This document shows positions 9,001 through 12,000 of a stretch of DNA of 64,000 nucleotides, one piece after another. The stretch is taken from the NCBI GenBank assembly GCA_037379345.1, contig CM074512.1, forward strand, positions 48,691,597-48,755,596. The letters run 5' to 3'. The DNA is from Perna viridis (lineage: Eukaryota). Position numbers: made by a program. Every line of letters starts with the position of its first letter. Position 1 is the first letter of the stretch.

Positions 9001-12000
9001 GGTTTGACATCAATCAACTGTTCAACCAGTTTTTCTTTGTTCTAGGTCAACCAGTGGTCGCATTTCATCAGCTAGTCGTAGTACCAGTGTTACTCCTAAA
9101 ATTCCTGCCAAAATGACATTGAACAATTCTACCGATACCCACAACAGCACAGCCTCTAGTGGGTCACATATCCTCAGTACAGGGGCAGAAACCCCTCATG
9201 ACAGAACAGAAGTGGTTGATGTACATAGCGCTGCCAGTTCTCTGTCTGGAAGCCGCTCGCTGGGATCACCAAAACCAGAACACAGCTCGACACCAGATGG
9301 AACGATTGACACAAAGGCCTATCTCGTTGGCGGAGGTGAGGAAGCATTGCCATCTATAGAACGAGGTTCTAACTTAGTTGTTACTAACGAAATTGTTGTA
9401 CATAATCAAAATATGTCATCCAAACAAAGTCCAGTTGCCTCTGATCTCATACTAACTGGTGACGGGTCTCAATTGTATTCCTTTAGCCAGGTAGATAATG
9501 CTATAGATAAGCTTAGTTCTGAATTGTATAATGTAGAAAATGTTCCAGATACGTACCGTGAGAAACTTTACTCTTCGCTCGGTAGAGATTCTAAAAAATT
9601 ATCTGAAAAAGAAAAATCACAGCAGCAAAGCAAAGGAACTTTACCAGAAAGTCAACCAAAAAGAGATTTGAGTGCTATAAAAAGGGAAAAATTGATGGAA
9701 CAAGAGCATGATCTGCAAGCTGAAACTCAGAGAGAAATTGAGAACTTGATTGCTTCTGTTCAGGAAGAAAAGCGACGTCTTGCAGAAGGCGAAACTTTTA
9801 TGATTGAATTGAAAGATGATATTCCTGCAGGTTCTCACATTTCTGTTAGTGTAGGAGTATCTTCTCGTCAAAATTCTCCAGATAAACAAGTTCTTGCATC
9901 TCCTATGTCACAGGAATCTGTTGATTTATCTGATAGACATAGTACTGATCTTGATCTTTCAGCACAGACGAGTATTGATTGTGACAGTTACAGTTTTTCT
10001 TCATTAGCAAACAGTGAAGACCTTATGGATGCTATTCCGTATATTCTTCATCGAAGACATTTTTCTGAAGATGCTGAAGAAGAAATTGAGAATAATGATA
10101 TCATTAGTCCTGTAGAGCCAAGTGCTGAACTGAGTTCTATTCGTAGGAGTAGAAGTTTGAAAAAGAAACGTCCCACCAACATACAAGTAGAACAGGTAAA
10201 AGTCTATGCAAGTTCTGAAGATGGATCTCCATCGCCCCAACTACATCAAAGATCTTTTTCCTGTGGGACAAAGAGATCACCACACAGTAGATCTCCATCT
10301 GAAAAAGGTCTGCGTATTTTGAAAAGTAGATCTCCATCAGGAAAAAGGACACCAGGATCCATTTCCCAAACATCTCTTGACCGCTCTCCATCAGGTGCAA
10401 AAAGGCGTAACTATTTTACACTACCACCAAGAGATGCTTATTCTAGCATTGATGATACTACAAGCCCTGTTTTTGATACAGATATTGTTAAGCATATTAA
10501 AAGTCAACAGTCAATTGATCGTGAGGATAGTAACACAAGCATCCAAATGTTAGGTCAAGCAAATCTGACTGATCAATCTCCAGTAGTTGAAACAAATGCT
10601 ATGTATTCTCCTGAATATGTTCAAGTTGAAACTTTTAGAACTGACAATGTATTAAATGATGATAAACAATCAGATGGACCTGTATTTGGGAAAGTAGATG
10701 AAAAATCAATTGACCTGTCAGCAAGAACTGTTGAATATATGGAATCTCAACAAATTTCTCAATGTCATGATGTAAGGGAAGTTATCAAGGAAGAAAACTC
10801 CTCTCCAGAAAAATCTCCTGACAGTGAAAGTATAAAAAGTGTACAAGAAAAAGTTAATGTCAAAAAGAAGGACATGATACAAAAAAGTTGGAAATACACA
10901 AAGCAGGAAACTGTAGATCTGATGGGAAGTCATCACAGTGACACTGGAAGTCTGGACAATCCATCTCCAGCAGCCGTGTTCCTGTTATCTGAAGGTGAGT
11001 ATCATAGTAAAGTCAAAAGAAGTAGCAGTGGCATTTCATTCAGCACATTCAAACCAGCTAATGTTTCTACTCCAAGCACTCCAGGGTCACGCCCCCAGAG
11101 TTTTACAGAATCAGAAAAGGGAGAAGACACTGTCTCTCTTTTGTCTTCTGCAACTGATACATTGAGTAGGACTTGTAAAATTCCAGAGGAAAATATTTTC
11201 CGCCCAACAAGTCCTAAACCTAAATCAAATCATCGTAGGAGCTCAAAAGATATGCCAAATATTCGATCACGTAGAAAAGTAAGCTTTCCTCGTGAAAGGG
11301 GATACAAATATAGCTTTGAAAGTGTAAATGACCCTCCATATTTGTCACTTCCTCGTTCAGAGGATATCAGCTTAGAGGAATTCAATAAAACATCTGATTC
11401 TTTAACTGGATATTTATCTCATGATAATTGTGAAATGATTGAATCGGATACTACTGAATCTTCCAATGGTGAAACAGACCAAGATATTGAGAGCAGTGAT
11501 GATGATCGCCATGCGGAGTTCTTAAAATTTGCAAAAAGTTTAGCTGATTCAGGAAAGGAAATCACCGCTGATTCTGGAGTTGGTGCTGAAATGGAGAACT
11601 CAGTTGTCAGGGAAACGTCTCCCTTAGAAGTGCTTGATAATCTTGAAAATTCTCTTCAGGATTCTTTTGAATATAGTCTAACTAGAAATGGCTGTCAGAT
11701 CAAAATTGATGTGGATGGTAGTTCTTCCGATAGTGAACCCGAGATTGTTGTTACAAAAAAACGTTGTAGTGCTGATCCTCTGGAGGAGTTAGAAAATTTA
11801 GACATTGCTGAAGTTGCTTCCAGTACAAGCAGCAGCTCTTCAGAAGGACGGAAAAGAAAGAAGAAAGGGAGGAGAAAATCTAGTCGAAATCAACTGGTTA
11901 TACCACTGTTAACTATTAGTAATCCATCTAGTCCTGAAGAAAATAATGTAGATAGCAAATACAACGAAATAAGCTCTAATTCTGTTTGTTAAGATATTTT

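What the first reader, a model, noticed from the sequence alone, without database searches (positions are those of the whole stretch)
9330..11000. Two in-phase internal 5' splice sites make exon 4 a three-way length switch
Seen: GGAG|gtgagg (9335/9336) and a perfect-consensus GAAG|gtgagt (10994/10995) are both phase 1, matching the next FARP acceptor (27366). Using the first gives a conventionally sized FARP. Using the second inserts 553 more aa (coiled coil plus RSPS repeats) between FERM-FA and DH. Using neither gives the truncated isoform. Inference: linker length could tune localisation or autoinhibition of the DH-PH-PH module.
Basis: partly seen in the sequence, partly recalled or inferred. 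Interest (0 to 1): 0.65.

Follow-up and report, generated by a model that had tools for sequence, protein, structure and literature searches.

The report
Mussel FARP composite exon, two isoforms
A mussel-type FARP gene has one long exon that either runs on to its own stop codon, giving a protein without the enzyme part, or is cut early to give the ordinary full-length protein; a proposed third, middle-length form has no support so far.

Summary
The sequence observation is exact. GGAG|GTGAGG lies at 9335/9336 and GAAG|GTGAGT at 10994/10995. Both are phase 1, 553 codons apart, inside a 994-codon open frame (9008..11992), and both fit the phase-1 acceptor at 27365/27366.

The gene is a FARP orthologue (FERM-FA-DH-PH-PH) from a mytilid-like bivalve; I do not take it for human. 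Two of the three proposed routes are supported:
- **9335>27366:** the closest spliced relative (P0012) has this junction.
- **Read-through to the stop at 11990:** a Mytilus coruscus model and gastropod isoforms have this FERM-FA-plus-tail form. In Babylonia the two forms diverge at the same kind of junction, Gly read through versus Asp spliced.

C. elegans frm-3 is described the same way, so this binary switch is old and known.

The third route (10994>27366) has no support. No RhoGEF-bearing protein in four searches carries the 553-residue insert. The Gly codon at that site is kept only in the 5 closest relatives (0 of 9 distant ones). Given the peptide EGEY, a perfect consensus arises by codon choice about 5% of the time. 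It is probably a cryptic or minor site. RNA data, which I could not get, would settle it.

The parts
116..271 (+). FARP exon, FERM_C first half. This is the first FARP exon visible in the window; about 211 N-terminal residues lie upstream of the window.
   Evidence: Pfam FERM_C E=1.9e-17. tblastn P0012 residues 212-263, 98% identity. Donor TAT|GTAAGT at 271.
3298..3458 (+). FARP exon, FERM_C second half.
   Evidence: Pfam FERM_C E=3.6e-8. tblastn P0012 residues 268-322. Boundaries.
5971..6045 (+). FARP exon, FERM-adjacent (FA) region.
   Evidence: Pfam FA E=1.7e-10. tblastn P0012 residues 321-347, 100% identity. Donor AAG|GTATGC at 6045.
9046..9335 (+). It is shared by both isoforms and ends at the phase-1 donor GGAG|GTGAGG.
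   Evidence: Acceptor ttctag|G at 9045/9046. P0012 residues 347-443 map to 9044-9334 at 99% identity, then jump to 27365.
9336..11992 (+). Read-through extension of the same exon: 884 further full codons after the split Gly codon at 9335-9337, then stop TAA at 11990-11992. It encodes a serine-rich, mostly disordered tail ending ...SVC.
   Evidence: 0 stops in 884 codons, where the window average is 0.067 stops per codon, so P is about 1.5e-27. Conserved end to end in P0003-P0008, with the same C-terminus in 5 of 6 (all but P0008). P0004 joins it to FERM-FA. AlphaFold mean pLDDT 37.3, with confident helices only at residues 208-246 and 819-834.
9698..9793 (+).
   Evidence: Helix 208-246 with pLDDT 68-87. 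Conserved among P0003-P0007. Coordinates. Oligomeric coiled-coil state was not tested.
10289..10393 (+). Three RSPS motifs.
   Evidence: Coordinates. Columns S414-S418 and S427-S431 are invariant in all 7 rows of A1; of the third motif S447 and P448 are invariant and its Arg is kept in 3 of 7 rows.
10992..11000 (+). Second GT site AAG|GTGAGT (exon would end at 10994, phase 1). Candidate cryptic donor; use not shown.
   Evidence: 9 of 9 consensus match. It lies in the conserved peptide block SPAAVFLLSEGEYHSK. No protein with this junction was found.
9363..9371 (+). Window equivalent (GAG|GTTCTA, phase 1, 4 of 9 consensus match) of the donor that two other mytilid transcripts use.
   Evidence: P0011 and P0013 read ...EE..ER-D-LP.PY, ten and five codons past the GG-G site in their own sequences, and both end at the Arg that corresponds to window 9362-9364, ten codons past 9335. 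Sequence. The score of 4 of 9 is my own count from that sequence.
27366..27606 (+). Next FARP exon (linker before DH), phase-1 acceptor tttcag|AT.
   Evidence: tblastn P0012 residues 440-535 and P0011/P0013 from 27365. Donor TAG|GTAGAG at 27606.
28408..43316 (+). Remaining 16 FARP exons (DH, PH, PH) up to the stop after 43313. Approximate exons: 28408-28651, 29363-29452, 30323-30453, 31083-31170, 32274-32460, 33182-33232, 35395-35453, 35861-35932, 36986-37054, 37307-37396, 38898-38983, 39490-39599, ~40221-40400, ~41391-41501, ~41930-42105, 43232-43313.
   Evidence: tblastn collinear with P0012, P0011 and P0013. GT/AG boundaries; three junctions between 39599 and 41930 are not resolved. Pfam RhoGEF hits at 32211-32480 (E=1.7e-8) and, below the cut-off, at 29333-29572. 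Stop after 43313.
12201..12256 (+). Two ATTAAA hexamers about 210 and 260 nt after the tail's stop. They are possible poly(A) signals for the read-through mRNA.
   Evidence: No AATAAA occurs within 1.5 kb. AT-rich DNA gives such hexamers by chance, so this is a lead only.

Best explanation
Region 9046..11992 is a composite internal/terminal exon of a FARP (FRM-3/FARP1/2-type) gene in a mytilid-like bivalve. It works as a two-way switch, not a three-way one. If the phase-1 donor at 9335 is spliced to 27366, the mRNA encodes the conventional FERM-FA-DH-PH-PH exchange factor of about 1110 aa. If that donor is not used, the exon runs on for 884 more codons to its own conserved stop at 11990. The product is then a FERM-FA protein with a serine-rich, largely disordered tail and no DH-PH module, presumably ended by cleavage and polyadenylation shortly after 11992. 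The perfect-consensus GT at 10994 most likely comes from the codons for Glu-Gly-Glu-Tyr inside a conserved peptide block of that tail. It is probably unused or only a minor cryptic donor. Shown: the sites, their phases, the open frame, the conservation of both protein forms in relatives, and the junction in a close relative. Inferred: that this species makes both mRNAs, that polyadenylation ends the long form, and that 10994 is silent.
For: Gene identity and structure come from Pfam FERM_C, FA and RhoGEF hits on window frames. 21 tblastn segments are collinear with P0012, P0011 and P0013 (1111-1117 aa, from contigs of 3.9-5.0 kb that must be spliced).

Short junction: P0012 reads ...AYLVGG-D-LPPPY..., which is 9335>27366.

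Read-through form:
- The frame is open with P about 1.5e-27 by chance.
- It aligns end to end with P0003-P0008, and 5 of the 6 (all but P0008) share the C-terminus ...SVC.
- P0004 (Mytilus coruscus, 1337 aa) joins FERM-FA to it.
- FERM/FA-only long proteins exist in gastropods: P0019, P0022, P0024, P0035, P0046. P0036, an unnamed representative, is another.
- Babylonia P0024 and P0026 are identical for about 454 residues apart from a 15-residue insert. They then diverge as ...SP-G... versus ...SP-D..., the same Gly/Asp signature of a phase-1 G|GT donor.

Against use of 10994:
- The 11 RhoGEF-bearing hits of 30 (1096-1258 aa) have no tblastn segment in 9365..11989. A long form of about 1664 aa was within the searched lengths.
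- 1 hit over 1717 aa, FERM/FA only.
- 5 of 5 proteins holding exon 5 lack the insert.
- 2 of 29 representatives bear RhoGEF, and both match only profile positions 2-85.
- Gly at the site is present in 5 of 5 close relatives but 0 of 9 distant ones, and only 1 of 9 has a residue (Ser) that an NGT codon could encode.
- Splicing there would cut a conserved block in two.
Against: - The 10994 site is the best consensus match in the whole gene, 9 of 9 against 5-8 of 9 for 18 real donors. It lies nearer the acceptor than 9335, and a transcript that reaches 27366 would have it available.
- The codon choice that creates it has only about a 5% chance given the peptide.
- The five close relatives have EGEY or EGKY. 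Glu/Lys differ by the one base change (G/A at +3) that keeps GTRAGT, which is what a conserved donor would allow.
- Local RNA folding does not hide the site (z = -0.41).
- The donor actually used has moved within this exon between mytilids, so donors here are labile.
- All evidence against use is absence of evidence. It comes from assembled or predicted proteins of other species, which favour dominant isoforms. No RNA data and no protein of this species itself were available.
- The read-through mRNA is inferred from relatives and conservation, not seen here. The ATTAAA hexamers after the stop are weak evidence.
Confidence: 0.7

Rival explanations
1. Besides 9335, the donor at 10994 is used in some tissue or stage and is spliced to 27366. 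The result is a roughly 1664-aa FARP with a 553-residue insert (helix plus RSPS motifs) between FA and DH.
For: - The site is a perfect consensus, in phase, and gives the same Asp split codon.
- The chance of this codon choice is 5%.
- EGEY/EGKY is kept in 5 of 5 close relatives.
- The site is not sequestered in RNA structure.
- Donor positions in this exon have shifted between mytilids.
Against: - No protein with insert plus RhoGEF was found.
- Three independent spliced mytilid forms (P0011, P0012, P0013) all use an early donor.
- The Gly is not conserved in 9 of 9 distant relatives.
- The internal exon would be 1949 nt, which from general knowledge is unusually long for an exon flanked by introns of 3 and 16 kb.
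- The junction would split a conserved block and drop the most widely conserved C-terminal third of the tail.
Confidence: 0.15
2. The 10994 sequence binds U1 snRNP without being spliced. It would then modulate 3'-end formation or stability of the read-through mRNA. Alternatively it pairs with an unknown acceptor in 11-27 kb, giving a further tail variant.
For: A strong 5' splice-site sequence lies about 1 kb upstream of the tail's stop and about 1.2 kb upstream of the nearest ATTAAA. That U1 bound in terminal exons can inhibit polyadenylation is general knowledge recalled by me, not tested here.
Against: There is no evidence of any kind here. All six tail homologues in A1 run colinearly through the site, and five of them share the window's C-terminus. 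The site is absent in distant relatives.
Confidence: 0.05
3. The tail frame is a separate gene or has its own promoter, and the FERM-FA-plus-tail models are annotation fusions.
For: - The scallop model P0009 (1242 aa, named unc-89-like by its source) and many unnamed hits have the tail without a Pfam FERM domain.
- Several hits (P0003, P0006) start in translated intron sequence, so they are plain genomic frames.
Against: - The tail frame begins exactly at the shared acceptor 9046, and the first 97 residues are the constitutive FARP exon.
- There is no Met before residue 23 of the exon.
- FERM-FA is joined to the tail in independent annotations of at least five named species and two unnamed representatives: P0004, P0019, P0022, P0024, P0035, P0036, P0046.
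- Babylonia's two forms share identical upstream residues.
- C. elegans frm-3a/b has the same layout.
Confidence: 0.05

Closest known systems
C. elegans frm-3 (FARP orthologue), isoforms FRM-3A and FRM-3B
   Same: One gene gives a FERM-FA protein with its own C-terminus (A) and a FERM-FA-RhoGEF-PH-PH protein (B). [quoted passage not shown] PMC9632837 passages name FRM-3A and B as FERM-bearing isoforms. This is the layout found here.
   Different: I saw only text passages, not the figure of the gene structure or the supplements. I did not compare sequences with the worm, so homology of the two tails is untested. The mollusc tail is about 890 aa and conserved across Mollusca. No second internal donor is described for the worm in the passages I read.
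Vertebrate FARP1/FARP2 (FERM, ARHGEF and pleckstrin domain proteins)
   Same: The domain order FERM-FA-DH-PH-PH is the same. Sources name the mollusc hits 'FERM, ARHGEF and pleckstrin domain-containing protein 2-like'. The short isoform has the conventional size, 1111 aa in P0012.
   Different: I made no direct comparison with vertebrate sequences. I did not look up whether vertebrate FARP genes have a read-through FERM-FA isoform.
Vertebrate FRMD7
   Same: It is a FERM-FA protein without DH-PH whose closest homologues are FARP1 and FARP2 (PMC3163398, passage). In architecture it resembles the read-through isoform here.
   Different: It is a separate gene in vertebrates rather than an isoform. 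Homology between its C-terminal part and the mollusc tail was not tested. Pfam finds no family in the tail and the ESM Atlas gave no hit at 0.9 or above.
Annotated mollusc isoform pairs, e.g. Babylonia areolata P0024 (FERM/FA only, 1694 aa) and P0026 (FARP2-like isoform X3, 1175 aa)
   Same: They share identical upstream residues, then diverge Gly versus Asp at a phase-1-type junction. This is the same switch as 9335 here.
   Different: The two forms carry different product names in the source. The tail is longer and only patchily similar: tblastn segments map to 9044-9226 and 10019-10510 only. No middle-length form is listed there either.

Membership tests
FARP family (FERM-FA-DH-PH-PH Rho exchange factors) | FERM domain followed by FERM-adjacent (FA) region | tested here: met
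   Pfam FERM_C at 116-328 (1.9e-17) and 3262-3459 (3.6e-8), and FA at 5855-6058 (1.7e-10). FERM_N and FERM_M lie upstream of the window and could not be seen.
FARP family (FERM-FA-DH-PH-PH Rho exchange factors) | Dbl-homology (RhoGEF) domain downstream in the same gene | tested here: met
   Pfam RhoGEF at 32211-32480 (E=1.7e-8, 35.3 bits, cut-off 27.6). A sub-threshold piece lies at 29333-29572 (18 bits). Both are collinear with RhoGEF-bearing P0012.
FARP family (FERM-FA-DH-PH-PH Rho exchange factors) | Two PH domains after the DH domain | tested here: inconclusive
   Pfam on single window frames in this region (38090-38425, 38688-38993, 40206-40745, 43207-43509) found nothing at E<=0.001, as expected for domains split over small exons. 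tblastn shows 66-100% identity to P0012 residues 786-1111, whose precomputed Pfam list has PH families. No joined model was scanned.
Composite internal/terminal exon giving FERM-FA-only and full FARP forms (frm-3a/b type) | Internal donor inside an exon whose frame stays open past it, used to reach the DH-PH exons | tested here: met
   The donor at 9335 is phase 1. P0012 has the junction. P0011 and P0013 use a donor that corresponds to a site ten codons further on in window coordinates.
Composite internal/terminal exon giving FERM-FA-only and full FARP forms (frm-3a/b type) | Read-through frame is a conserved coding sequence with its own stop | tested here: met
   884 codons without a stop. 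It aligns with P0003-P0008, sharing the C-terminus with five of them. 29 representatives were found in 1.84 billion. FERM/FA-only proteins with the tail occur in bivalves and gastropods.
Composite internal/terminal exon giving FERM-FA-only and full FARP forms (frm-3a/b type) | Both mRNAs made in this organism; poly(A) site after the internal stop | not testable with these tools
   No RNA data were available. Only two ATTAAA hexamers at 12201 and 12251.
   AAG|GTGAGT scores 9 of 9, is phase 1, and matches the phase-1 acceptor at 27366.
   None was found. 0 of 11 RhoGEF-bearing hits, 0 of 5, 0 of 1, and 0 of 2 RhoGEF-bearing among 29. This is a test on relatives' proteins only; this species' RNA was not available.
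   At protein level only, Gly is kept in 5 of 5 close relatives and 0 of 9 distant ones. Nucleotide sequences of relatives could not be obtained.
FRMD7-like proteins | Homology of the C-terminal part beyond FERM-FA | not tested
   No vertebrate sequence was fetched. Only the architecture is alike, and the FRMD7-FARP kinship comes from the PMC3163398 passage.

The most novel reading that the evidence does not exclude
In mytilid mussels the perfect donor at 10994 is a young, lineage-specific, regulated splice site. It would turn most of the FERM-only isoform's tail (a conserved helix and three RSPS motifs) into a 553-residue linker inside the full exchange factor. One exon would then yield three proteins, and the site would show how a terminal-exon tail is recruited as an internal linker.
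Probability: 0.12. Interest if true: 0.45.

Novelty: new member of a known kind. Interest (0 to 1): 0.25.

Why it matters
The real feature is a binary choice between a FARP exchange factor and a FERM-FA scaffold protein from one gene. It is shared by a nematode (literature) and by bivalves and gastropods (this work). That suggests, by inference, that the FERM-FA-only form is ancestral. Vertebrates may have split the two roles between FARP1/2 and FRMD7.

For annotation it has three consequences:
- It explains why mussel gene models break this locus into a 'FARP2' without DH-PH (P0004) and a DH-PH fragment with a spurious N-terminus (P0033).
- It explains why a scallop tail model carries an unrelated name.
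- It warns that a perfect splice consensus inside a long coding exon is not evidence of use.

The third isoform, if it were shown, would be a modest addition and not a new principle.

Tried and rejected
- **Pfam on the tail:** no family.
- **ESM Atlas on the last 332 residues:** best score 0.83 with low recognition, so no usable lead.
- **AlphaFold on the 981-residue exon with 7 rows:** mean pLDDT 37.3 and no fold worth a structure search.
- **RNA folding around both donors:** z = -0.41 and +0.36, so no structure explains use or non-use.
- **M. galloprovincialis P0033:** I first hoped its 200 extra N-terminal residues were tail joined to exon 5. They are a tandem repeat unrelated to the exon, so I rejected it as support for 10994.
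- **Motif enrichment in the window:** none.
- **Pfam on 30 further long frames on both strands:** only one sub-threshold hit, ignored.
- **Literature:** no paper holds both 'FARP2' and 'Mytilus'. A broader six-term search returned only bivalve papers without FARP among the 12 listed. One search was rejected for a term with an apostrophe.
- **Not possible:**
  - RNA-seq junction counts.
  - Supplements of the worm papers.
- **Left out as instructed:** a joined spliced model was neither built nor searched; exons were searched one by one.
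Full report
**What the window is.** The window has about 30% G+C and no N. Its best protein matches are to mytilid bivalves. I do not take it for human, and nothing in it was treated as such.

On the + strand it holds most of a FARP gene:
- Pfam finds FERM_C at 116-328 and 3262-3459, FA at 5855-6058, and RhoGEF at 32211-32480, with a weak piece at 29333-29572.
- I gave Pfam 100 of the 187 + strand frames of 45 codons or more, those from 116 to 35980.
- tblastn of the hits gives 21 collinear segments from 116 to 43313 for P0012. P0012 is 1111 aa and comes from a 4955-nt contig. 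It spans 43 kb of this window, so it must derive from spliced RNA.
- About 211 N-terminal residues lie upstream of the window, so 'exon 4' means the fourth FARP exon visible here.

**The observation.** It is exact.
- The frame 9008..11992 is open for 994 codons. The next longest frames in the window are 431 and 180 codons.
- The exon starts at 9046, after ttctag.
- GGAG|GTGAGG ends the exon at 9335 and GAAG|GTGAGT at 10994. Both bases are first codon positions, and the two are 553 codons apart.
- The acceptor tttcag|AT at 27365/27366 needs one upstream base. Either donor supplies a G, so the split codon reads Asp.

**The first donor is real.**
- P0012, the closest spliced relative (99% identity over 9044-9334), reads ...AYLVGG-D-LPPPY.... 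It leaves the exon at the 9335 position and continues in the 27366 exon with no residues between. So there is no hidden exon between 12 and 27 kb in this form.
- Two other mytilid spliced forms, P0011 and P0013, leave the exon later, after ...EE..ER. In window coordinates that corresponds to GAG|GTTCTA at 9365/9366. It is also phase 1, but by my count it matches the consensus at only 4 of 9 positions here.
- The donor in use has therefore moved within this exon during mytilid evolution.

**The read-through form is real as a conserved coding sequence.**
- After 9335 the frame stays open for 884 codons. The window's stop density is 0.067 per codon, so P is about 1.5e-27. A neighbouring frame has 127 stops in 884 codons.
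- It aligns end to end with six proteins (P0003-P0008, 42-89% identity), and five of them (all but P0008) share the C-terminus ...SVC.
- A profile of that alignment finds only 29 representatives among 1.84 billion.
- P0004 (Mytilus coruscus 'FARP2', 1337 aa) joins FERM-FA to the whole tail.
- FERM/FA-only proteins with a long tail also occur in the gastropods Patella, Gigantopelta, Babylonia and Nucella, and in two unnamed representatives.
- In Babylonia the FERM-only form P0024 and the full FARP P0026 are identical for about 454 residues, apart from a 15-residue insert. They then diverge as Gly versus Asp, the signature of the same phase-1 G|GT donor.
- The tail is 18% serine and is predicted to be mostly disordered, with mean pLDDT 37.3. 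A second helix lies at 819-834.
- Three RSPS motifs are present. The first two are invariant in all 7 rows of the alignment; the third keeps only its Ser-Pro in every row.

[quoted passage not shown] Its Results state that both isoforms share FERM-FA and that only FRM-3B has RhoGEF and two PH domains (passages; also PMC9632837 passages). I did not see the gene-structure figure or the supplements, which may hold details that bear on the comparison. A review passage names FARP1 and FARP2 as the closest homologues of the FERM-FA protein FRMD7 (PMC3163398). That the read-through isoform is the invertebrate counterpart of FRMD7 is my inference and was not tested.

**The second donor has no support beyond its sequence.**

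Points in its favour:
- It matches MAG|GTRAGT at 9 of 9 positions, while 18 confirmed donors of the gene score 5-8.
- Its local RNA is not unusually structured (z = -0.41).
- The five closest relatives keep EGEY or EGKY.

Points against:
- The motif is not enriched in the window: 4 found against 2.17 expected, and 18 of 100 shuffles reach 4.
- Given the peptide, the exon's own codon usage produces a 9-of-9 site at this place in 5.0% of 5000 resamplings.
- The Gly is replaced in 9 of 9 more distant relatives (N, T, K, K, D, S, I, K, Q). Only Ser could be an NGT codon. The flanking block SPAA...TFSTFKP stays conserved.
- The junction would cut that block and discard the part of the tail that matches most widely (11459-11812).
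- Among 30 hits of 539-1717 aa, the 11 with RhoGEF are 1096-1258 aa long. None has a tblastn segment between 9365 and 11989.
- The only hit above 1717 aa is FERM/FA only.
- All 5 proteins that hold exon 5 lack the insert. The extra N-terminus of P0033 is an unrelated tandem repeat.
- Among the 29 representatives, only P0028 and P0050 bear RhoGEF, and they match only profile positions 2-85 and 3-81. I scanned 24 of the 29. Of the other five, P0007 and P0008 have no precomputed Pfam domain, P0028 has a precomputed RhoGEF, and P0039 and P0048 are fragments of 120 and 157 aa left unscanned.

These are negative results on assembled or predicted proteins of other species. They lower the odds that 10994 is used, but they do not exclude a minor or tissue-limited isoform.

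**Limits.** Synonymous-site conservation of either GT and junction read counts therefore stay unchecked.

**Verdict.**
The exon is a composite internal/terminal exon that switches between a FERM-FA scaffold-type protein and the full FARP exchange factor. This is a known kind of arrangement, extended here to molluscs.
- The third, long-linker isoform is unsupported, and I put it at roughly 0.12-0.15.
- Interest is low to moderate.

Noticed in passing
window 9363-9371, compared with P0011 and P0013: Two other mytilid spliced FARP forms leave this exon later than P0012 does, after ...EE..ER, at the site that corresponds to GAG|GTTCTA (9365/9366) in the window, ten codons past 9335. It is phase 1 but a poor consensus match here. 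The constitutive donor has shifted within the family.
   Followed up: partly
window 11276-11287 (KVSF within RRKVSFP): R-K-V-S-F is invariant in all 7 aligned tails. From memory it fits the RVxF-type docking motif for protein phosphatase 1. It lies downstream of 10994, so only the read-through isoform would carry it. Not tested.
   Followed up: no
window 60712-62004, + strand: A 431-codon open frame, the second longest in the window, with no Pfam family. Its ESM Atlas look-alikes are 'Protein bunched, class 2/F/G isoform' (0.93, 214 shared features) and clusters partly carrying TSC22. It is probably the large N-terminal exon of a TSC22/bunched-type neighbour gene.
   Followed up: partly
P0033 and P0034 (Mytilus galloprovincialis models), P0004 (M. 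coruscus), P0009 (Mizuhopecten): Public gene models split or misname this locus. P0004 'FARP2' is the FERM-FA-plus-tail form without DH-PH. P0033 is DH-PH with a 200-residue tandem-repeat N-terminus that matches nothing in the window. The scallop tail homologue is named 'unc-89-like'.
   Followed up: partly
window 272-3297 (intron between the two FERM_C exons): Babylonia P0026 has 15 residues at this junction that P0024 lacks. P0012 has 4 residues (264-267) that tblastn does not place in the window. There may be an alternative micro-exon here.
   Followed up: no
window 11501-11548 (tail residues 819-834): A short helix with pLDDT about 71 in the block ...RH.EF.KFAKSLA.SGK..T.DS.VG, most of which is invariant in all 7 rows. 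It is the best conserved part of the tail and its partner is unknown.
   Followed up: no
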